64,000 nt of DNA from Escherichia phage AV108. The notes under the pieces are model-generated. The model searched no databases. It was given only the letters and a program-made list of their open reading frames with translations, and was not told where the DNA came from. How positions within the stretch are numbered: position 1 is the first letter of the stretch; every line of letters begins with the position of its first letter. Shown one piece after another: positions 1 through 35,214 of this stretch. Position numbers and translations under genes: made by a program. The stretch lies in sequence record OR352938.1. One strand, written 5' to 3'.

Positions 1-1937
1 TGTTTACCGAAATTATCAAGGAAGTCAACAAGTTTTTCGGTATCATCGAAACGGTCTTCCCCGCCAACCTTATCAACAACATTGTTAACCAGCACATAAA
101 CGGAGTCAGTATCACAATAACGAACATATGCAAAATCAGTTGTTCCACAAAGCTCGTTTAAGTATTCGTTAATCTTACGCTCAATCCACTGAATTGCAAG
201 CTGACCGAACAGTGTGATCGCACTAGCGTTACGGAGATCATAAAAACGGAATTTAGGATTCCCCAACGCACCATAAAGGGAGTTGATCAAAACTTTTCGA
301 GAAAGCTGGTTTGTATTGCACAAGATCGACTCGTCTTTACATTCTTCCAGCAATTTCTCTAAGGCATCTTTACTTAATGCAGAAAGCATCGATTTAAACG
401 CTTCATCAAAGTCGTGACGCACTTCAACGCTATAGCTAATGGTTCCCCCATAAACATGATTTTCATCGTGTAGAATCGCTTTACATAGTTCAGCATTGCG
501 ATCACATGCCAACATCATGTTTTTGTACTGCTTGCGCTGGTCGAATACCTTTTTAATCTCAATCGGTACGATACCATGAATATCTTTTCGATACATCCAC
601 CCGTTAGGCGAGCAAGAATACTCATCACTCGGACGTGGTGCAGTTTTATTGATATATTCGTGCATCGGTGCAGCATCAAAAGATCCAGCGATTGTTTCAG
701 GCGAAATATTAACCTGTCGAATAATAGATGGGTACAGACTTGTTAAGTCAAAGCTCATCATCCAACGGTAAGCATTCGGCACAGGTTCTTTTACGAATGC
801 GCCCGGATAGGTCTGCTTAGGCTGTATCTTGTTCTCTGGTACTACTTTACCCTCAGCTTTCAGAGATCCGAAGATAATAGCATCCCATACTTTCATCGGG
901 TTATAAACATGGTTAAATTTAATCTTTGCATAGAAACATAGGCTATACACCAGATCAATAAAACCACGCTTTTTATCAATCGCCAGAACACGATCAACGT
1001 CGCCGATGTTATAATCGATGTAAAGTTGATGGTTGTCATCACGCAATTTCTTTAACGGACCATCATAATCAACCTTACCTATTCCGGTCTCATATTCAGC
1101 AACATAATCTAAGGCATATGTTGGTTGAGTCGTAAAGCTAAATTTCTTGTATAAGTCAATGTAATCAAGGCTTTCGATCCCCATGATCGTAAAGGCTTCA
1201 CGCTCGTTGCCAAAATCATCCTGTGAGATTCGGGATTTAATCTTACCGCACGGGCTTAGACGGTTGGCGGTTCTACTTCCGAACTTATTACTGATACGTT
1301 TAATGATATACGGAATATCGAATGTTTCTGTGTTCCAGCCAGTGAAACCAACGGGTCGGTTTTCCTCAAAGAATCGGATGTATTCTAACAGCAATTCATC
1401 TTCTGTGTCATAAACGTTATAAACAACGCGCTCTACAATATCAGGTCGAAGAATAGACTTGCTTGCTTCCCAGATTTCACCGTTTTTTCCTTTCAAATCA
1501 AATACAAAGAAACGATCATGTACGGAATCATAATGCGTAATTGCATCGATAGGATATTTCGCTTCTTCTGGTTTAGGAAATTCCGGTGCAGTGACCTCGA
1601 TATCAACCCATGCTACACGGATTTTATTTCGGTCATATCGAATCTCGCCTTTATATGTATCGGACAGATAGGAGATGATAAAATCATCCATCCCTAGTGC
1701 CTCCTGCCCCATTTCTCCCATCTTTTTACGCCATTTGTTGGCCTCGTTCATAGATGGGAATTTTTTAGCAATGCAAGGCTTGCCATAGATATCTTTATAA
1801 TTCGTAACCATACCAGGCGCGGCATGATGAAATAAAGTTGGCGTATATTCAACGTAACGCTCTTGTTCTTGTCCAGCATCATCAATATAACGCTCGTAGA
1901 TCTTATCACCCACTCGCTCACATGACAGAAAATACAT
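1..1937 (-). CDS. 43: DNA polymerase gp43 (family B), N-terminal ~645 aa; gene continues beyond window start
   Basis: Long minus-strand reading frame from ATG ~1937 (MYFLSCERVGDKIYERYID...) colinear with T4 gp43 N-terminus (remembered sequence); GAAGGAG RBS upstream; runs off the window edge. Confidence 0.9.
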   Translation of the reverse strand, partial: MYFLSCERVGDKIYERYIDDAGQEQERYVEYTPTLFHHAAPGMVTNYKDIYGKPCIAKKFPSMNEANKWRKKMGEMGQEALGMDDFIISYLSDTYKGEIRYDRNKIRVAWVDIEVTAPEFPKPEEAKYPIDAITHYDSVHDRFFVFDLKGKNGEIWEASKSILRPDIVERVVYNVYDTEDELLLEYIRFFEENRPVGFTGWNTETFDIPYIIKRISNKFGSRTANRLSPCGKIKSRISQDDFGNEREAFTIMGIESLDYIDLYKKFSFTTQPTYALDYVAEYETGIGKVDYDGPLKKLRDDNHQLYIDYNIGDVDRVLAIDKKRGFIDLVYSLCFYAKIKFNHVYNPMKVWDAIIFGSLKAEGKVVPENKIQPKQTYPGAFVKEPVPNAYRWMMSFDLTSLYPSIIRQVNISPETIAGSFDAAPMHEYINKTAPRPSDEYSCSPNGWMYRKDIHGIVPIEIKKVFDQRKQYKNMMLACDRNAELCKAILHDENHVYGGTISYSVEVRHDFDEAFKSMLSALSKDALEKLLEECKDESILCNTNQLSRKVLINSLYGALGNPKFRFYDLRNASAITLFGQLAIQWIERKINEYLNELCGTTDFAYVRYCDTDSVYVLVNNVVDKVGGEDRFDDTEKLVDFLDNFGK

Positions 1938-15954: not shown

Positions 15955-16482
15955 TTATTTTAAATTTTTTCGAATGTAGTCAGACCATTCCTTCCCTGTC
16001 AGTTCGGTCCCATTCTGGAAACTGAAATATTCATACGGCATCGAGTCAAGATAAAACAGGATCATACATCGCGCCATATAATACCAATCACGATTAAAGT
16101 AAACTACGTTATCACCAGTACCATCAACCCCTTTATCATAACCATCGCGGGTACGGGCAACCCATTGAATAGTATCATTTTTCTCACGGATAGTAACAGG
16201 TTCCCAATATCCAGCACATCCAGCATGACCACACGAACAAGTAAGGAAATATTGTCCTTTTGCTTTGTTGTCATCCCATTCACGATGGATCGGTTTGATT
16301 TCGTGAAACATTGCCAAACAATCATGATTATGCAACACCGGCTTACCATCAATCAATGCATGGAATGTATACAAACGACCCGTAGACAAATAGCTATCCT
16401 CACGCTCAACCAGTTCAATAGCAATCTTTTTAGCTCGTTCTTTGTGTCGTTGTGCTTTACGCTTACGGTTTAATGATTTCAT
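15955..16482 (-). CDS. Hypothetical protein (~175 aa)
   Basis: Track ORF; start at MKSLNRKRK with GAGGTG RBS; Cys/His-containing. Confidence 0.45.
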   Translation of the reverse strand: MKSLNRKRKAQRHKERAKKIAIELVEREDSYLSTGRLYTFHALIDGKPVLHNHDCLAMFHEIKPIHREWDDNKAKGQYFLTCSCGHAGCAGYWEPVTIREKNDTIQWVARTRDGYDKGVDGTGDNVVYFNRDWYYMARCMILFYLDSMPYEYFSFQNGTELTGKEWSDYIRKNLK

Positions 16483-16499
16483 ATTCACCTCACACATTA

Positions 16500-17039
16500 T
16501 CAAAGGTCGCGATATAGTACATTATGAAAATGAGAACTTGCATTACCAATATTGTAGATAATAAATTCTTCATCCGGCGCTTGCGCTACAAATTGAGTAT
16601 GAGCAACCGCCACAACCTTAAAAATACGATCCGTGATCTTGTGTTTAATTTCTGCCCCTACTTCCATAGGAACATATTCATTTGTTTCTGTTTCAGTCGC
16701 AAAACAGCCATCTTCTTCATAAGCACGAACAAATCTGTCGCAATCAGTACGCTTAACAAATTCAAGAGTATATAATTCTCGTGAATTGTCGGTATAGACC
16801 AATACAGAATTATTATGATAGCGAATCACATACAGGTTATTATCATCGTCAATTACGCAAAAGCTACGGATTCCTTCGCCTTGACTCCAGCAGATATTAA
16901 CCACCGTTCCTCTAATAAAAAAACTTTCCTTTAAATTAAAACTAGTCAATGTGCTAGCGTGCATTTTAACAACAACACCATCGCCAATTTCCAGTTTACG
17001 AATTTTAACTTCTTTGCTCAGTACACAAAACATCATCAT
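16500..17039 (-). CDS. Hypothetical protein (179 aa)
   Basis: Track ORF directly after an early promoter cassette. Confidence 0.5.
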   Translation of the reverse strand: MMMFCVLSKEVKIRKLEIGDGVVVKMHASTLTSFNLKESFFIRGTVVNICWSQGEGIRSFCVIDDDNNLYVIRYHNNSVLVYTDNSRELYTLEFVKRTDCDRFVRAYEEDGCFATETETNEYVPMEVGAEIKHKITDRIFKVVAVAHTQFVAQAPDEEFIIYNIGNASSHFHNVLYRDL

Positions 17040-17068
17040 GTTGTCCTCTCGTTGTTTTCGATGTGAGC

Positions 17069-17096
17069 ATTATACATTAGCTAATCATGTTGTCAA
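17069..17096 (-). promoter_or_regulatory. sigma70-type early promoter (TTGACA-N16-TATAAT)
   Basis: Minus-strand TTGACA aacatgattagctaatg TATAAT then leader CATCGAAAACAACGAGAGGA before ATG. Confidence 0.5.
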
Positions 17097-17139
17097 CACC
17101 CCAAAACGAAAAAGCCGACCCTTTCGGATCGGCTAAAAA

Positions 17140-19002
17140 TTACATGTGCTTAACGCGGTTTACCATCTCGGAGTGTTTCCCGTGGTTAAATGGACGCAGA
17201 TCAACAGATCCAAGATATCCACTAACGCGACGGATAACATTCATCTTTTCCAGATTGTCGTTGCCGCAATCAGGACAAACAAAACCAGACTCGGTCGCTC
17301 TCATTTCCTTATTAGACCCGCATACATGACATACATCAGAAGGAGTATTAACACCGAAGTAGTGCAATTTATCCATTGCATAGTCTACTACAGTTTCAAG
17401 ACCTTTCAGGTTGTTTTTCATGTCTGGGAACTCAACATAAGAGATCATGCCACCGGACGCCAGCCAGTGATAATCTTTCTCAAAGTCAATTTTCTCAAAC
17501 GGTGTAACCTTCCGGTCTACGTCAAGGTGGAATGAGTTGGTGTACCAGTCTTTATCGGTAGCACCCTTAACAATACCAAATTGCTCTCTGTCCAGTCGAT
17601 TAAATCGATAGCAAAGGCTCTCGGCTGGCGTACCGTAAAGACTAAACCCAAGTCCGGTTTCGTCCTTCCATTTTTCAGTATAATGACGCAAGATCTTAAG
17701 AATATGTTTACCGTATCGCTGCGCATCTTCCGAATCAAACGGATGAACATCAAACAGGACGCTCAATACCTCATGTAAACCAATATATCCAAGAGAGATA
17801 CTAGCGCGACCATCTTTCAACACTTCCAAAATTTCATCGTTTTGATGAATACGGAAAAATGCACCTTCGGTATATAGTACAGGAGCAACATTGGCTTTAG
17901 CGCCTTTTAAAGCGTCTACGCGACTCATGAGCGCATCAAAACAAATAGGCATACGATTAGCTAGCTCTTGTTCGAATAGCTCAATTCTGCGCATTACAGA
18001 CGCTTTACCAGCACGACGCGCGGCAATAAGAGCAATACGCGGAAGATTCAGAGTCACAACACCCAAGTTATTACGTCCGTCTAATACTTCTTCGCCTTTC
18101 TCATTATGCCATACACCCAGGAAGCTACGACAACCCATCGGGCTAACCGGAACACTAGATCCAGTGATGCTACGGTTATTCTTCGCAGAGATATAATCAG
18201 GGTAAAGACGCTTACTAGAACATTCCAATGCAAGTTGCTTAATGTCGTAGTTCGGATCTTCCGGTTTAAGGTTTAATCCTTCTTCTAAGAACATCACCAG
18301 CTTAGGAAACACCGGAGTTATACCGTCTTTACCTAAACCTTTAGTTCGAACTTTCAGGATCGCTTTCTGAATCAGTTTTTCTTCCCAGCTAGTACCCATA
18401 CCAAAGGTTAAAGTCACAAAAGGCGTTTGACCGTTGGTGGAGAACAAAGTGTTGATTTCATATTCCAACGCTTGATACCCGTCTAGCGTTTCTTTTTCTG
18501 TCTTCTCTTGTGCATAGAGAGTATCAGCTTTGATTCCGTAGGTTTCGGCATCAGCAAGGTGTTTATGATATGTTTTCTCAACGTATGGCGCTAAAACCTG
18601 ATCGATGTTTGCAATTGTGGTCCCGCCATATTGATGACTTGCCACCTGTGCGATAATTTGAGCGGTTACAGCACAAGCAACGCCGATCGATTTCGGACTT
18701 TCGATTTGTGCGCTACCCAATTTAAAACCATTCTCTAACATGTCTTTGAGATTAACAAGACAGCAGTTAGTAAACGGCATAGCGGGTGCATAATCCATAT
18801 CATGATAATGAATATCACCGTCTACATGCGCTTTATAGATGTGCTCAGGTAACACGGTTTTAGCAATCTGTTTAGACACAGCGCCAGCAATCAGATCTCG
18901 ACGTGTCGGGAATGTTCGCGCGTCTTTGTTCGCGTTCTCTTTACTTACTTCGTTTTCTTTACCCGTTGCGATCTCTGTAATGTCTTTGATTAGTTTTTCC
19001 AT
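17140..19002 (-). CDS. nrdD: Anaerobic ribonucleoside-triphosphate reductase NrdD (glycyl radical enzyme)
   Basis: 620 aa; C-terminal zinc ribbon CHVCGS...CPDCG and glycyl radical motif RRVSGYLG; uninterrupted (no intron). Confidence 0.9.
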   Translation of the reverse strand: MEKLIKDITEIATGKENEVSKENANKDARTFPTRRDLIAGAVSKQIAKTVLPEHIYKAHVDGDIHYHDMDYAPAMPFTNCCLVNLKDMLENGFKLGSAQIESPKSIGVACAVTAQIIAQVASHQYGGTTIANIDQVLAPYVEKTYHKHLADAETYGIKADTLYAQEKTEKETLDGYQALEYEINTLFSTNGQTPFVTLTFGMGTSWEEKLIQKAILKVRTKGLGKDGITPVFPKLVMFLEEGLNLKPEDPNYDIKQLALECSSKRLYPDYISAKNNRSITGSSVPVSPMGCRSFLGVWHNEKGEEVLDGRNNLGVVTLNLPRIALIAARRAGKASVMRRIELFEQELANRMPICFDALMSRVDALKGAKANVAPVLYTEGAFFRIHQNDEILEVLKDGRASISLGYIGLHEVLSVLFDVHPFDSEDAQRYGKHILKILRHYTEKWKDETGLGFSLYGTPAESLCYRFNRLDREQFGIVKGATDKDWYTNSFHLDVDRKVTPFEKIDFEKDYHWLASGGMISYVEFPDMKNNLKGLETVVDYAMDKLHYFGVNTPSDVCHVCGSNKEMRATESGFVCPDCGNDNLEKMNVIRRVSGYLGSVDLRPFNHGKHSEMVNRVKHM

Positions 19003-30402: not shown

Positions 30403-30801
30403 TTAATCCAGTCGAGTGAGTTTATAAATTGTTTTAAAGCATAGAGCTTTGATATCGTCTAAAACGCTCTGTAACGAGCTATCAACATCATTATAAATCT
30501 CACTAGCCATTTGCGTTAACTCTTGCAAATAGGCAATTTCGCTAATCTCCTTGCGGACGACCAACTTTGGCTGATAACGACCAGTGATCCCAATATTGGT
30601 TTCAGTGAAATTATCAACCAATTCTTGCATTTCAAGATAGAACTCTTCTAGAGCCTTATGTTTTGCATAAGATCCAGGACCAGTTACCCCAAAATGCGCA
30701 GAATGCATATAAGTAACACTCATCAGACATTCACCGATAAAGCGGTCAACTTTATTAGCCTTTCCCTCTTCGGACGTCTTTAGAAAATCACTGAATTTCA
30801 T
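30403..30801 (-). CDS. Hypothetical protein (~133 aa)
   Basis: Start MKFSDFLK; followed by a 220-nt untranslated tail. Confidence 0.45.
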   Translation of the reverse strand: MKFSDFLKTSEEGKANKVDRFIGECLMSVTYMHSAHFGVTGPGSYAKHKALEEFYLEMQELVDNFTETNIGITGRYQPKLVVRKEISEIAYLQELTQMASEIYNDVDSSLQSVLDDIKALCFKTIYKLTRLD

Positions 30802-31158: not shown

Positions 31159-31755
31159 TTATTTGGTAGTACCATCAATAAAATGTTTACGACACACAGA
31201 AACATATTTATCCTCTGCACCAACTTCTATTTGAGCACCATCGCGAATAACATTACCATCTTTATCTACGCGAAGGACCATAGTCGCTTTCTTGCCACAA
31301 TGACAAATACCCTTCATTTCGACCAGTTTATCAGCAAATGCCATTAATGCCGCAGATCCTTCAAATAGATTGCCCTGAAAGTCAGTGCGAAGGCCATAGC
31401 ACAGTACAGGGATATTAGCATCATCAACAAGCGCACACAAGCCTAAAACATGCTCTTTAGTCATAAATTGGGCTTCATCTACAAATACAGCATCAGGACG
31501 CCAGCGATCCGTTCTACGCTTACCTAGTGATTCACGATAAACCAAGTCGAAAAGATCATCCGATTTAGTGAAGGTGATCGCTGGAGCACTTAGACCAATT
31601 CGGGAAACGACTTCACTTTCTGAATCTCGATTATCAATCGCTGGTTTAAGAATTAATACTCGCATATCACGTTCGGTATAGTTATAAGCACTTTGTAACA
31701 GAGAAGTTGATTTGCCAGCGTTCATAGATGCATAGTAGAAATATAATTGCGCCAT
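31159..31755 (-). CDS. tk: Thymidine kinase
   Basis: P-loop MNAGKST, Walker B FVDEAQF, C-terminal zinc motif CHCG...C..H; length ~T4 Tk. Confidence 0.9.
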   Translation of the reverse strand: MAQLYFYYASMNAGKSTSLLQSAYNYTERDMRVLILKPAIDNRDSESEVVSRIGLSAPAITFTKSDDLFDLVYRESLGKRRTDRWRPDAVFVDEAQFMTKEHVLGLCALVDDANIPVLCYGLRTDFQGNLFEGSAALMAFADKLVEMKGICHCGKKATMVLRVDKDGNVIRDGAQIEVGAEDKYVSVCRKHFIDGTTK

Positions 31756-32048
31756 TAATTAATCTCCAAAAATCCAACAAGACCTAAACCGATATAAGTC
31801 CAGATACAAAGGAAAAAGAAGCAAACACCCATAGCAAAGATAAATCCGCGTAGTGTCTTTGGATAACCTACCCAATATTCCCGACCATCTTCTAACCGGA
31901 TCAACTTATTGCCTTGCGAGTCCATATCAACTACAACATGTTTATTTCGAGATTGCAATAGATATTGTTTTACAATCTCTACACCCGCCATAATAACAAT
32001 AACGAAAATAAAAGTCCACACAACAAGATTAATGATAGTCTCAAGCAT
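31755..32048 (-). CDS. Small membrane protein (97 aa)
   Basis: Two predicted TM helices (N- and C-terminal). Confidence 0.45.
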   Translation of the reverse strand: MLETIINLVVWTFIFVIVIMAGVEIVKQYLLQSRNKHVVVDMDSQGNKLIRLEDGREYWVGYPKTLRGFIFAMGVCFFFLCIWTYIGLGLVGFLEIN

Positions 32049-32283
32049 TTTCTATCACCTCCACCCAATCAGGTGTTTCCTGAAAGACTCCTTCACCTTC
32101 ATGATGGTCGCAACCTTTATTGCTGCAATACATCCACCAATCCCACATTCCCCACGGTAAACGCTGCATATCGTCGTTACAGCAAGTGAAGATAATAGGC
32201 CAACCACATCTAACACATCGGCAGTTTTCCTTCATGTGTGCGGTATTAGGCTTCTTCATAGATGACTCCAATATAATCGACAT
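32041..32283 (-). CDS. Cys-rich small protein (80 aa)
   Basis: CRCVRCGW...CCNDD...CSNKGCDHH metal-binding-like pattern. Confidence 0.45.
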   Translation of the reverse strand: MSIILESSMKKPNTAHMKENCRCVRCGWPIIFTCCNDDMQRLPWGMWDWWMYCSNKGCDHHEGEGVFQETPDWVEVIENA

Positions 32284-32486
32284 TTACATTTAGGGCAATG
32301 CGGTTCTTTAATATAATACCCGTCTGTCTTTGGAACACTAACAGGAGCGGTTTTTATATTGTATTCAGTGAAACAACGAAAACAAGTTACGTTTTCTACA
32401 GACTGACGTTTCACCCAATCACCGGAATATAGATCATTTTTATTTGTCATATTCAACCACCACAATGTTAATGTCTGGAGTAGCAA
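32256..32486 (-). CDS. Zinc-ribbon small protein (76 aa)
   Basis: CFRCF...CPKCKC pattern. Confidence 0.45.
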   Translation of the reverse strand: MLLQTLTLWWLNMTNKNDLYSGDWVKRQSVENVTCFRCFTEYNIKTAPVSVPKTDGYYIKEPHCPKCKCRLYWSHL

Positions 32487-32895
32487 TATTAATAATCTCT
32501 TCTACACACTCCCACTCAAGGCCACCGATACCGCAACCGATTTTAGGAATATAGAAAGGCTGTATAGCACCCTCAAAAACATCATTGAGAGACTCAAATC
32601 CTTTCAGGATAGCACCATATTCAGCATTTGGACCCGGTCGGAATTGGGTATAGAGATTCACCCCGCACCAGTTATAACCATTAACTTGATGCGTCCAGAT
32701 ACTAAACCCACCCAGCTTTTCTACCTTACCGCGAGAAGTTTGCTTGTCAATCTCTAACGCTTGCGGGAACTCTTTCGCGATCTTTGCAGCAATACCAGCA
32801 CCCATAGTATGAAAACAATTACAACCATGAATTAAATGACCGTTTCCTTGTTTAAACAGGGCGATGAGATCGCCCTTTACAGTATCAATAATCAT
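32440..32895 (-). CDS. Macrodomain protein, TARG1/OARD1/DarG-like
   Basis: 151 aa; VKGDLIALF, HGCNCFHTMGAGIAAKIAKEFP and IPKIGCGIGGLEWECVEEII motifs align with TARG1-type macrodomains as remembered. Confidence 0.65.
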   Translation of the reverse strand: MIIDTVKGDLIALFKQGNGHLIHGCNCFHTMGAGIAAKIAKEFPQALEIDKQTSRGKVEKLGGFSIWTHQVNGYNWCGVNLYTQFRPGPNAEYGAILKGFESLNDVFEGAIQPFYIPKIGCGIGGLEWECVEEIINIATPDINIVVVEYDK

Positions 32896-32910
32896 AATAT
32901 AAACCTCTCA

Positions 32911-33270
32911 TTAGTCACGGGAAGACAACCCAGCCATAAAACGGCTTAACAGTGTGTCGCGATAAGCAAAGCATAATTGCTTATCAGGGGCAGTATCACA
33001 AAGGTTGCGTTTTGTTTTAGCAAAGCTGGCAATACTCAGATCCCACGCTCGATTTTTTCGTTTTTCGTCTCGACCTTGTTTGTATGCTTCGTCGAGTTCA
33101 AGTGCGATAAAATCACTACACATGTTATCATCATCACAGAAAGTTTTAATGATCTTTTTGTTGATCTCAAATCCTTTGTATTCGAACTTTGGATAAGGGC
33201 GCTCATTACTAGCAAGCGCACCAGCCGAGAACATCATAGCAATCATAGCAATTATTGTCAACTTTTTCAT
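32911..33270 (-). CDS. Secreted protein (signal peptide, 119 aa)
   Basis: MKKLTIIAMIAMMFSAGALASN signal peptide; Cys-containing mature domain. Confidence 0.45.
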   Translation of the reverse strand: MKKLTIIAMIAMMFSAGALASNERPYPKFEYKGFEINKKIIKTFCDDDNMCSDFIALELDEAYKQGRDEKRKNRAWDLSIASFAKTKRNLCDTAPDKQLCFAYRDTLLSRFMAGLSSRD

Positions 33271-33868: not shown

Positions 33869-33953
33869 TAATTTCTCCTGTTTGGCTTAACTTTCTGATT
33901 CCATAATATAGCCCTATCACCAGAAAGTCAAGCATTATTTTAACCAATTTCCA

Positions 33954-34380: not shown

Positions 34381-34716
34381 TTATCCTTTCTTAAACAAAT
34401 TGCGAAGCCAGTATACAAACGGGATTTCTTTAAACTTGAATTTCTCAATAGTTAATTCTTTAGTAGCAAGATGAATACCATAAGCATCATGTGTAACTAT
34501 ATGCCATTTTCTATAGTCCAAATGTGAACAACCGTCTGGATCTAGGTTAATAAGAGTTTCTCGCTCACTAGGATTATTTTTCCACAATTTTGTAATAGGA
34601 TCGCACATAATTCGACCTAGCGTACCATGAATAATCTCACAACGGTAAAGTTTTCCAGCAGTGAGATAGGCGCACCCGTCATAGTCGGTATAAACAAACA
34701 CTTCTTTAACACTCAT
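34381..34716 (-). CDS. CSHL-motif small protein (paralog 1 of 3)
   Basis: DPDGCSHLDYRKWHIV motif shared with two downstream ORFs; after promoter cassette. Confidence 0.5.
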   Translation of the reverse strand: MSVKEVFVYTDYDGCAYLTAGKLYRCEIIHGTLGRIMCDPITKLWKNNPSERETLINLDPDGCSHLDYRKWHIVTHDAYGIHLATKELTIEKFKFKEIPFVYWLRNLFKKG

Positions 34717-34745
34717 TTTAATACTCCTTTGTTGTTTCGATGGGG

Positions 34746-34775
34746 GTATATTACTACCCCCCGATCATGTGTGTC
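34746..34775 (-). promoter_or_regulatory. sigma70-type early promoter
   Basis: TTGACA-N18-TAATAT embedded in GGGGGTAGTAATATACCCCC palindrome. Confidence 0.45.
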
Positions 34776-34777
34776 AA

Positions 34778-35038
34778 CTACTTTTTCAAGATTTTTTTGA
34801 TTGCATTCCAAAGACCTTTATTCCCAGGTTGTTTTGGTTCTTCGATCAGTGTCCATGTTCGACCGTCTAAGTGTGCACAATTTTTAAGACAAATAAAAAT
34901 CTGGTGTCCCTTATCATCACGGATATAACCACTATTCGCAAATCTTTCATGTGGTGTATATTCATACAGTGTATTTGGTGTAATATACTTGCGGTTACTA
35001 TAAGGTGTCATCACATACATCATGGTACTAACTCCCAA
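34778..35038 (-). CDS. CSHL-motif small protein (paralog 2)
   Basis: NCAHLDGRTWTLIEE motif. Confidence 0.45.
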   Translation of the reverse strand: MGVSTMMYVMTPYSNRKYITPNTLYEYTPHERFANSGYIRDDKGHQIFICLKNCAHLDGRTWTLIEEPKQPGNKGLWNAIKKILKK

Positions 35039-35214
35039 CGATCACCGCGAAGATGAGAACATCCACCATCAAGAAGTATCGTAATACGATAACCTATATC
35101 ATCTTTGATGTAACCGATTGTCGGTGGATTTTCGTCGTCTCGTGCCGGGGTAAAATCATACATCTTTCCAGGCGTAATATCTTGTCCTTTATTGCTATTG
35201 GTATAAACTTGCAT
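35020..35214 (-). CDS. CSHL-motif small protein (paralog 3)
   Basis: GGCSHLRGDRWELV motif. Confidence 0.45.
   Translation of the reverse strand: MQVYTNSNKGQDITPGKMYDFTPARDDENPPTIGYIKDDIGYRITILLDGGCSHLRGDRWELVP

What the first reader, a model, noticed from the sequence alone, without database searches (positions are those of the whole stretch)
32440..32895. Phage-encoded TARG1/DarG-like macrodomain (candidate ADP-ribose eraser)
The 151-aa ORF carries VKGDLIALF, HGCNCFHTMGAGIAAKIAKEFP and IPKIGCGIGGLEWECVEEII motifs that line up with the TARG1/OARD1 macrodomain family, the same fold used by the DarG antitoxin to remove ADP-ribose from DNA. In a lytic phage it could reverse host ADP-ribosylation defences such as DarT-type DNA ADP-ribosylation, or tune the phage's own Alt/Mod-type ADP-ribosyltransferases. 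It is co-transcribed with two small Cys-rich zinc-ribbon ORFs (32041-32486).
Basis: partly seen in the sequence, partly recalled or inferred. Interest (0 to 1): 0.7.

Follow-up and report, generated by a model that had tools for sequence, protein, structure and literature searches.

The report
Phage tk.4 (AdfM-type) macrodomain gene

Summary

The window is a Krischvirus, an RB49/JSE-like T-even phage. The gene is the positional ortholog of T4 tk.4, at 44% identity and in the same regB-vs.1-vs-tk.4-...-tk slot.

A 2025 preprint showed that T4 needs tk.4 to resist DarTG2 and renamed it AdfM. A 2026 paper showed that PhiKZ AdfM removes DarT2-made ADP-ribose from DNA.

One refinement. The catalytic lysine of DarG and TARG1 is replaced here by a near-invariant glutamine (Q84). 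T4 Tk.4 has the same change, and so does SCO6735, where that glutamine is essential for removing ADP-ribose from thymidine in DNA. PhiKZ AdfM keeps the lysine.

The two zinc-ribbon ORFs are real and tightly packed downstream, but they do not travel with the macrodomain in other phages.

No biochemistry exists for this protein or for T4 Tk.4. Interest is low.

The parts
32440..32895 (-). tk.4 / adfM-type macrodomain gene, 151 aa (stop codon included)
32788..32820 (-). Codons 26-36 (NCFHTMGAGIA): first ADP-ribose-binding loop, including invariant Asn26
   Evidence: N26, M31 and G34 are invariant in 62 family members. N26 aligns with SCO6735 Asn27 and the conserved DarG Asn. The N23A mutant of PhiKZ AdfM (construct listed) had reduced activity.
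32644..32646 (-). Codon 84 (CAA, Gln), at the position of the DarG Lys80 / TARG1 Lys84 catalytic lysine
   Evidence: The HMMER profile alignment puts the family's Q opposite SCO6735 Gln85, the BT1257 Gln, and the Lys of Mtb DarG and TARG1. MAFFT agrees for DarG, TARG1 and PhiKZ gp104. Gln occurs in 61 of 62 aligned members and 113 of 120 hits. The codon was read.
32521..32547 (-). Codons 117-125 (PKIGCGIGG): second, diphosphate-binding glycine-rich loop. Gly124 sits where TARG1 has Asp125.
   Evidence: P117, I119, G120 and G122 are invariant and G125 nearly so. Aligned to PRIGCGLD(125)R of TARG1 and PRIGCGLAGG of SCO6735.
32904..32909 (-). Shine-Dalgarno-like GAGAGG upstream of the tk.4 ATG, in the 15-nt gap after the vs stop codon
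   Evidence: Junction sequence printed. Its function is inferred.
32256..32450 (-). Downstream small ORF zn2 (64 aa from its ATG). Its ATG overlaps the end of tk.4 by 11 nt. A neighbour, not a conserved partner.
   Evidence: Pfam Phage_zn_bind_2, E 1.8e-23. JSE annotation. Overlap ATGACAAATAA. Found near the macrodomain only in MiataMamis, and elsewhere in TNG87.
32041..32259 (-). Downstream small ORF zn1 (72 aa from its ATG), with an ATGA overlap to zn2. A neighbour, not a conserved partner.
   Evidence: Pfam Phage_zn_bind, E 5.6e-34. JSE annotation. No homolog was found in the seven loci compared (T4, MiataMamis, TNG87 and four more distant phages).
31755..32048 (-). 97-aa predicted membrane ORF between zn1 and tk. 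It overlaps zn1 by 8 nt and abuts tk (TAATG).
   Evidence: ORF. PHROG 16027, unknown function. Junctions.
33903..33931 (-). Candidate sigma-70-like promoter (TTGACT-17-TATTAT) in the regB/vs.1 gap. It could drive vs.1-vs-tk.4-...-tk.
   Evidence: 10 of 12 consensus match. The number of such matches in the region is not above shuffled expectation, so this is only a candidate.

Best explanation
The ORF encodes a stand-alone, single-domain macrodomain ADP-ribosyl hydrolase. It is the Krischvirus ortholog of T4 Tk.4 (AdfM).

Most likely mechanism. When the phage infects E. coli carrying a DarTG2 toxin-antitoxin defence, the DarT2 toxin attaches ADP-ribose to thymidines in single-stranded phage DNA and blocks replication. 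The phage macrodomain is made from the vs.1-vs-tk.4-tk gene block. It binds the ADP-ribose through its two glycine-rich loops and cleaves the thymidine-ribose bond. This restores normal DNA, so the protein acts as an orphan antitoxin.

The catalytic position holds Gln84, kept in place by Asn26, rather than the Lys of DarG and TARG1. The chemistry is therefore probably the lysine-independent, water-mediated mechanism described for SCO6735.

Shown here: the fold, the class, the orthology and the active-site residues. Shown in the literature for relatives: anti-DarTG2 genetics (T4 Tk.4), enzymology (PhiKZ AdfM, SCO6735). Inferred: the activity and the biological role of this particular protein.
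For: - Macrodomain family: Pfam Macro above threshold. The only PADLOC and NCBIfam hit is DarG, on its macrodomain half (E 1.4e-14 and 3.5e-13).
- Orthology to T4 tk.4: 44% identity over the full length, E 4e-45, in the same regB-vs.1-vs-tk.4-...-tk-rI position.
- T4 genetics: tk.4 was the single hit in a DarTG2 transposon screen, and the knockout is DarTG2-sensitive.
- Enzymology in relatives: PhiKZ AdfM removes DarT2-made ADP-ribose from a DNA oligonucleotide and rescues DarT2 toxicity. SCO6735 hydrolyses thymidine-linked ADP-ribose on DNA and needs Gln85 and Asn27.
- Active site: Gln84 and Asn26 align with those SCO6735 residues and are (near-)invariant in the phage family.
- Genome context: the near-identical phage JSE also carries gp30.3, the homolog of the anti-DarTG1 NADAR AdfN. 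The T4 pair of anti-DarT genes is therefore present in this group too.
Against: - No experiment exists on this protein. Even for T4 Tk.4 only genetics has been published, not enzymology.
- Identity to T4 Tk.4 is only 44%. Identity to DarG, SCO6735 and TARG1 is 23-30%.
- The canonical catalytic Lys is absent.
- The DarG models are matched far below the equivalog cut-off (49.5 against 250 bits), and the DarT-binding C-terminal half is missing.
- Some distant homologs sit beside NAD-salvage-like genes, which hints at a metabolite substrate.
Confidence: 0.72

Rival explanations
1. It is a Poa1p-like hydrolase of soluble ADP-ribose derivatives, such as ADP-ribose-1''-phosphate or O-acetyl-ADP-ribose. 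On this view it serves nucleotide, NAD or RNA-repair metabolism rather than DNA repair. This is the historical 'A1pp phosphatase' or 'phosphatase' annotation.
For: - The T4 record notes 'contains A1pp phosphatase motif'. PHROG 335 is labelled phosphatase.
- Homologs in Pakpunavirus K5 lie directly after PRPP-synthetase-like and nicotinate-phosphoribosyltransferase-like genes.
- Vibrio phages Cody and Pontus have a ribose-phosphate pyrophosphokinase next to theirs.
- The gene lies in a nucleotide-metabolism neighbourhood (tk).
Against: - The T4 ortholog has a specific DarTG2-dependent phenotype and was the only gene with one.
- Macrodomains of this class often show several in vitro activities, so a phosphatase activity would not exclude the DNA role.
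- No NAD-salvage genes flank the gene in this window.
Confidence: 0.12
2. It neutralises DarT2 mainly without catalysis, by binding the toxin or the modified DNA. The macrodomain has lost the catalytic lysine and acts as a stoichiometric inhibitor.
For: - The Lys of DarG and TARG1 is replaced by Gln.
- Catalytically dead SCO6735 Q85A, DarG K80A and TARG1 K84A still inhibit DarT in vitro, and SCO6735 does so most strongly.
Against: - The residues needed for SCO6735 catalysis (Gln, Asn, both Gly loops) are (near-)invariant across the phage family. That argues for a conserved active site.
- The protein lacks the C-terminal DarT-binding domain of DarG.
Confidence: 0.06
3. It reverses or tunes protein ADP-ribosylation, either by the phage's own Alt and ModB enzymes or by host enzymes.
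For: - The near-identical phage JSE encodes alt and modB elsewhere in its genome.
- TARG1 and SCO6735 also act on protein-linked ADP-ribose.
Against: - Alt and Mod enzymes modify arginine (established knowledge). The TARG1 class is known for Glu/Asp-ester and nucleic-acid linkages, not arginine.
- tk.4 is not linked to alt or modB in the genome.
- In the T4 screen tk.4 mattered specifically in the presence of DarTG2.
Confidence: 0.05
4. It removes ADP-ribose from RNA, countering RNA-targeting ADP-ribosyltransferase defences of the CmdTAC type or processing ADP-ribose-capped RNA ends.
For: - RNA ADP-ribosylating defences exist and target T-even phages (PMC11618068 abstract).
- The authors of the AdfN paper speculate that such counter-defences may also act on other DNA or RNA ADP-ribosylating systems.
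Against: - CmdTAC gives robust defence against T-even phages, which all carry tk.4 homologs. The gene evidently does not neutralise it.
- There is no direct evidence.
Confidence: 0.05

Closest known systems
T4 Tk.4 = AdfM (anti-DarT factor macrodomain), bioRxiv 10.1101/2025.11.20.689424
   Same: Positional ortholog: same slot between vs and tk, same length, 44% identity. It shares the same NLYTQF...PGPN and HGCNCFHTMG motifs, including Gln at the catalytic position.
   Different: The sequences have diverged by 56%. The downstream small genes differ: T4 has tk.3, tk.2 and tk.1, while the window has two zinc-ribbon ORFs and a membrane ORF. The anti-DarTG2 phenotype has been shown only for T4.
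SCO6735 of Streptomyces coelicolor (PDB 5e3b), and its structural-genomics relative BT1257 (2fg1/2afc)
   Same: A stand-alone ALC1-like macrodomain with no DarT-binding domain. Gln replaces the catalytic Lys, and the Asn that positions it is conserved. SCO6735 hydrolyses thymidine-linked ADP-ribose on DNA and protects against DarT.
   Different: About 24% identity. SCO6735 has a longer mobile loop with Lys89, and Lys34 in loop 1 where the window has Ala33. It is a bacterial housekeeping or protective gene rather than a phage counter-defence gene.
DarG antitoxin of DarTG2 (M. tuberculosis 5m3i, T. aquaticus 5m31, Thermosipho 7omu)
   Same: Same macrodomain class. It is the best defence-system model hit and is among the top sequence and fold hits. 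It presumably acts on the same substrate.
   Different: DarG has catalytic Lys80, a C-terminal DarT-binding domain (about 330-400 aa in total), and is encoded next to darT. The window protein has Gln84, is 151 aa long, and has no darT neighbour.
PhiKZ gp104 AdfM (Cell Rep 2026, PMC13309987)
   Same: A phage-encoded orphan macrodomain that counters DarTG2. Its enzymatic removal of DarT2-made ADP-ribose from DNA has been shown.
   Different: It is a different lineage. It keeps the DarG-type FPTK lysine, scores 133-138 bits on DarG models against 50-52 bits for the window protein, and is about 23% identical to the window protein. It is imported into the phage nucleus.
Human TARG1/OARD1 (4j5r, 2lgr) and yeast Poa1p (6lfq)
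   Different: TARG1 uses a Lys84/Asp125 dyad, whereas the window has Gln84/Gly124. Poa1p is an ADP-ribose-1''-phosphate phosphatase.

Membership tests
Macrodomain superfamily (Pfam PF01661) | Profile match above the curated gathering score | tested here: met
   29.9 bits against a cut-off of 22, E 6e-7, covering residues 22-135 and the whole 118-position model.
Macrodomain superfamily (Pfam PF01661) | Three-layer alpha/beta macro fold with two glycine-rich ADP-ribose-binding loops | tested here: met
ALC1-like / TARG1 class of macrodomains | Closest sequence and structural relatives are TARG1, DarG, SCO6735/BT1257 and Poa1p rather than MacroD, viral or PARG types | tested here: met
T4 Tk.4 / AdfM orthologous group | Full-length homology to T4 Tk.4 | tested here: met
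   44% identity over 150 of 151 residues, E 4e-45. PHROG 335, E 1.5e-62.
T4 Tk.4 / AdfM orthologous group | Conserved genome position between vs/vs.1/regB and tk | tested here: met
   The order is the same in the window, JSE, T4, Klebsiella phage TNG87 and Aeromonas phage phiAS4.
T4 Tk.4 / AdfM orthologous group | Protects the phage against DarTG2 | not testable with these tools
   Shown only for T4 by transposon screen and knockout. It needs plaque assays with a Krischvirus deletion mutant.
DarG antitoxin (NCBIfam NF048014 equivalog; PADLOC DarG) | Score above the equivalog cut-off over the full-length model | tested here: not met
   49.5 bits against a cut-off of 250. Only model positions 2-141 of 338 are matched. 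PADLOC positions 3-141 of 329.
DarG antitoxin (NCBIfam NF048014 equivalog; PADLOC DarG) | C-terminal DarT-binding domain | tested here: not met
   The protein is 151 aa, and 142 of them align to the macrodomain alone.
DarG antitoxin (NCBIfam NF048014 equivalog; PADLOC DarG) | Catalytic lysine (Lys80) | tested here: not met
   Gln84 occupies that column.
DarG antitoxin (NCBIfam NF048014 equivalog; PADLOC DarG) | Encoded in an operon with darT | tested here: not met
   The neighbours are vs, vs.1 and regB upstream and small ORFs and tk downstream. No ADP-ribosyltransferase is adjacent.
TARG1/OARD1 | Lys84/Asp125 catalytic dyad | tested here: not met
   The window has Gln84 and Gly124 at the aligned positions. 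The dyad is described in PMC9411070.
SCO6735-type (glutamine) ALC1-like macrodomains | Gln at the Lys80/Lys84 position, and the Asn that positions it | tested here: met
   The profile alignment places Q84 opposite SCO6735 Gln85 and N26 opposite Asn27. I verified the numbering from chain positions with an offset of 20. Q is present in 61 of 62 and N in 62 of 62 family members.
SCO6735-type (glutamine) ALC1-like macrodomains | DNA-contacting lysines Lys34 and Lys89 and the extended mobile loop | tested here: not met
   Ala33 aligns with Lys34. The loop after Q84 is five residues shorter than in SCO6735.
SCO6735-type (glutamine) ALC1-like macrodomains | Hydrolysis of thymidine-linked ADP-ribose on ssDNA | not testable with these tools
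   It needs an in vitro assay with DarT2-modified oligonucleotide.
Poa1p-type ADP-ribose-1''-phosphate phosphatase | Phosphatase activity on ADP-ribose-1''-phosphate, and Poa1p-specific catalytic residues | not tested

The most novel reading that the evidence does not exclude
The T-even Tk.4/AdfM macrodomains, including this one, may not be captured DarG domains. They may form a separate glutamine-type branch of the ALC1-like class that works by the lysine-independent, SCO6735-like mechanism. If so, phages recruited two mechanistically different macrodomain lineages independently against the same DarT2 lesion: the Lys-type PhiKZ AdfM and the Gln-type T-even AdfM. Neither AdfM paper, in the passages I read, comments on this difference.
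Probability: 0.5. Interest if true: 0.35.

Novelty: already known. Interest (0 to 1): 0.2.

Why it matters
DarTG2 is a common bacterial defence that blocks phage replication by ADP-ribosylating DNA. Phage-encoded erasers determine which phages can infect DarTG2-carrying strains, and that bears on host-range prediction and on choosing phages for therapy.

This gene adds the Krischvirus group to the phages that probably carry both an anti-DarTG1 factor (gp30.3/AdfN, seen in the reference phage JSE) and an anti-DarTG2 factor (Tk.4/AdfM). The concept, the T4 ortholog's phenotype and the enzymology of related macrodomains are already published.

The only small new point is mechanistic: Gln replaces the catalytic Lys.

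Tried and rejected
- **Small MAFFT alignment.** It pushed the SCO6735/BT1257 'NMIGQHG' segment into an insertion, so Gln85 did not line up. I relied instead on the HMMER profile alignment. I checked its numbering against the published residue numbers (His24, Lys34, Gln85, Gly87 and Lys89 at chain offset 20).
- **Promoter and terminator scan.** It found 20 promoter-like sites against 15.4 +/- 3.9 expected, and 4 terminator-like sites against 2.9 +/- 1.7. That is not informative, so co-transcription rests on gene packing only.
- **Zinc-ribbon ORFs as conserved partners of the macrodomain.** Rejected. They are not homologous to T4 tk.1-tk.3. They are absent near the macrodomain in T4, phiAS4, Vibrio phage 1.188.A, fjerdesal and K5.
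- **Bacterial relatives paired with DarT.** The one Pelagimonas homolog I examined is a stand-alone gene among housekeeping genes. A single case settles nothing.
- **Literature searches.** The search for Poa1p catalytic residues gave nothing usable. The search for NARP1 plus macrodomain returned no papers. Two find calls failed because a search term was too short.
- **Model coordinates.** I could not inspect them to check the Gln84-Asn26 geometry.

Full report
**1. The observation**

The ORF listing shows an ATG-initiated ORF at 32440..32895 on the minus strand, 151 aa long. A GAGAGG Shine-Dalgarno-like element at 32904-32909 sits upstream of the ATG, in the 15-nt gap after the stop codon of the preceding gene.

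The two Cys-rich ORFs downstream are also real. They match Pfam Phage_zn_bind_2 (E 1.8e-23) and Phage_zn_bind (E 5.6e-34). With the ATG starts used in the phage JSE annotation they occupy 32256..32450 and 32041..32259.

**2. What the protein is**

- It passes Pfam's curated Macro threshold: 29.9 bits against 22, E 6e-7, spanning the whole model.
- It matches PHROG 335 at E 1.5e-62.
- Searched by sequence against solved structures, its best hits are the M. tuberculosis DarG macrodomain (5m3i), BT1257, TARG1/OARD1 and SCO6735.
- A profile built from 62 homologs raises these hits to E 7e-15 to 3e-13, while coronavirus Mac1 scores only 6e-3.
- An AlphaFold2 model from that alignment is very confident (pLDDT 96.9, pTM 0.91).
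- In PADLOC and NCBIfam the only model hit is DarG, matched on its macrodomain half.

**3. Where it comes from**

The region is 98% identical to Escherichia phage JSE and other Krischvirus (RB49-like) T-even phages. The protein is 100% identical to that of phage Cognac. In JSE the gene is already named tk.4.

The gene order in the window is regB, vs.1, vs, tk.4, three small ORFs, tk, rI. This is the same as in T4, Klebsiella phage TNG87 and Aeromonas phage phiAS4. The protein is 44% identical to T4 Tk.4 over its full length (E 4e-45). It is therefore the positional ortholog of T4 tk.4.

Homologs occur in 2735 phage records. A 2022 survey already reported macrodomains in 41% of myoviruses. The T4 GT7 record notes that Tk.4 'contains A1pp phosphatase motif'.

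**4. What is known about the family**

A November 2025 preprint used a transposon library of T4 on a DarTG2-expressing host. It found tk.4 as the single significant hit, and a clean knockout sensitised T4 to DarTG2. The authors renamed the gene adfM and proposed enzymatic removal of ADP-ribose from DNA, but they did not test the enzyme.

A 2026 Cell Reports paper independently named PhiKZ gp104 AdfM. It showed that the purified protein removes DarT2-made ADP-ribose from a DNA oligonucleotide and rescues DarT2 toxicity.

The anti-DarTG1 factor of T4 is the NADAR protein AdfN (gp30.3). JSE carries a gp30.3 homolog as well as alt and modB, all outside this window.

**5. Active site: the one refinement**

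The catalytic lysine of DarG (Lys80) and TARG1 (Lys84), found in the motif (P/I)TK, aligns with Gln84 in the window protein (motif YTQ). T4 Tk.4 has the same YTQ. The glutamine is present in 61 of 62 aligned family members and in 113 of 120 database hits. TARG1's second catalytic residue, Asp125, corresponds to Gly124.

The profile alignment places Gln84 opposite Gln85 of SCO6735 and the equivalent Gln of BT1257. I checked this numbering against the published positions of His24, Lys34, Gly87 and Lys89.

SCO6735 is a stand-alone bacterial macrodomain that hydrolyses thymidine-linked ADP-ribose on DNA and protects against DarT. Q85A abolishes its activity, and Asn27, which positions Gln85, is also required. 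The authors propose a water-mediated, lysine-independent mechanism. The matching Asn26 is invariant in the phage family.

PhiKZ AdfM differs. It keeps the DarG-type FPTK lysine and scores 133-138 bits on DarG models, against 50-52 bits for the window protein.

So the window protein works like DarG but fails four defining features of DarG:
- the equivalog score,
- the C-terminal DarT-binding domain,
- the catalytic Lys,
- a darT neighbour.

Its active site is of the SCO6735 type. It lacks SCO6735's Lys34 and its extended loop.

**6. Mechanism proposed**

*Shown here:* the fold, the class, orthology to T4 tk.4, and conserved ADP-ribose-binding loops and Gln/Asn active-site residues.

*Shown in the literature for relatives:* tk.4 is needed against DarTG2 (T4); macrodomain removal of DarT2 lesions (PhiKZ AdfM, DarG, SCO6735, TARG1).

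*Inferred:* during infection of DarTG2 hosts this protein strips ADP-ribose from thymidines in phage ssDNA, restoring replication as an orphan antitoxin. The chemistry is probably Gln-dependent. I put this at 0.72.

**7. Rivals**

- *Poa1p-like hydrolase of soluble ADP-ribose derivatives (0.12).* This is the historical annotation. It is supported by equal fold similarity to Poa1p. It is also supported by distant homologs lying beside PRPP-synthetase-like and nicotinate-phosphoribosyltransferase-like genes in Pakpunavirus K5 and some Vibrio phages. The specific T4 phenotype argues against it as the main role.
- *Non-catalytic DarT inhibition (0.06).* Dead mutants of SCO6735, DarG and TARG1 still inhibit DarT. 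The near-invariant active site argues against it.
- *Tuning of the phage's own Alt/ModB enzymes (0.05).* JSE has these genes, but they modify arginine, they are not linked to tk.4, and the T4 phenotype is DarTG2-specific.
- *Reversal of RNA ADP-ribosylation (0.05).* CmdTAC still defends robustly against T-even phages that carry tk.4 homologs.

**8. The zinc-ribbon neighbours**

From tk.4 to tk, every junction either overlaps or abuts: 11 nt, ATGA, 8 nt and TAATG. No convincing terminator intervenes. One transcription unit with translational coupling is therefore plausible, but it has not been shown, and the promoter scan is not above chance.

The zinc-ribbon ORFs are not homologs of T4 tk.1-tk.3. 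They are missing beside the macrodomain in T4, phiAS4, a Vibrio schitovirus, a Felixounavirus and a Pakpunavirus. zn2 recurs only in MiataMamis (78% identity, one ORF away from the macrodomain) and in TNG87 (45%, on the other side of tk). They look like interchangeable small early genes, not functional partners.

**9. Verdict**

It is not new. The gene has long been annotated as tk.4, a macro-domain or 'phosphatase' gene. Its T4 ortholog was published as the anti-DarTG2 factor AdfM, and the enzymology of related phage and bacterial macrodomains is established.

The residual novelty is modest. The T-even AdfM lineage carries Gln instead of the DarG Lys, like SCO6735, and so probably represents a recruitment separate from the Lys-type PhiKZ AdfM. 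Interest is 0.2.

Noticed in passing
window 34381-35214 (minus strand): Three consecutive small ORFs (111, about 82 and 64 aa) between regB and nrdC.11 look like tandem paralogs. They share a G-x-(L/M)-Y ... C-(S/A)-H-L ... W motif. The second and third are 40% identical (pairwise E 7e-13); the first is weaker (E 2e-4). None has a Pfam hit.
   Followed up: partly
window 35236-35934 (minus strand): The NrdC.11 homolog (232 aa) matches Pfam RlaP, the 'RNA repair pathway DNA polymerase beta family' nucleotidyltransferase (E 3.4e-14). It lies a few genes upstream of the RNA endonuclease regB.
   Followed up: no
L010 (Pseudomonas phage K5) 1-3480; also rows H75 and H77 (Vibrio phages Cody and Pontus): In these unrelated phages the macrodomain homolog (32-35% identity) lies directly next to genes annotated as PRPP synthetase (ribose-phosphate pyrophosphokinase). 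In K5 a nicotinate phosphoribosyltransferase gene is adjacent as well. That resembles a phage NAD-reconstitution module. It hints that some members of this macrodomain family are tied to ADP-ribose/NAD metabolism rather than, or as well as, DNA repair.
   Followed up: partly
L009 (Escherichia phage fjerdesal) 2995-3780: In this Felixounavirus the macrodomain homolog is annotated as a 261-aa 'putative phosphatase'. That is about 105 residues longer at the C-terminus than the 151-aa T-even form, which suggests a fused extra domain.
   Followed up: no
window 33233-33261 (minus strand), inside the 5' end of vs: This is the best sigma-70-like match in the region: TTGACA-17-TATGAT, 11 of 12, with an extended -10 TG. 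It lies just inside the vs coding sequence. If active, it would give a transcript starting within vs and reading into tk.4. The number of promoter-like sites in the region is not above chance.
   Followed up: no
window 32256-32450 (zn2); L007 3711-3902; L011 4533-4652: The small zinc-binding ORF zn2 has a 78%-identical copy in the unclassified Escherichia phage MiataMamis, whose macrodomain is only 68% identical. It also has a 45%-identical partial copy in a different position, after tk, in Klebsiella phage TNG87. This suggests that these small ORFs move independently of their neighbours.
   Followed up: partly
window 30403-30801 (minus strand): The rI.-1 homolog next to rI matches Pfam DUF5856 (E 9.8e-21). 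In another phage record the equivalent gene is labelled 'starvation-inducible transcriptional regulator'.
   Followed up: no
L003 (phage JSE) 17062-20204 and 35715-38337, corresponding roughly to window 1-900 and 16400-19000: In the JSE reference annotation the DNA polymerase gene is split into two CDSs. nrdD is likewise split in two, with a homing endonuclease gene between the halves. I did not check whether the window has the same arrangement.
   Followed up: no
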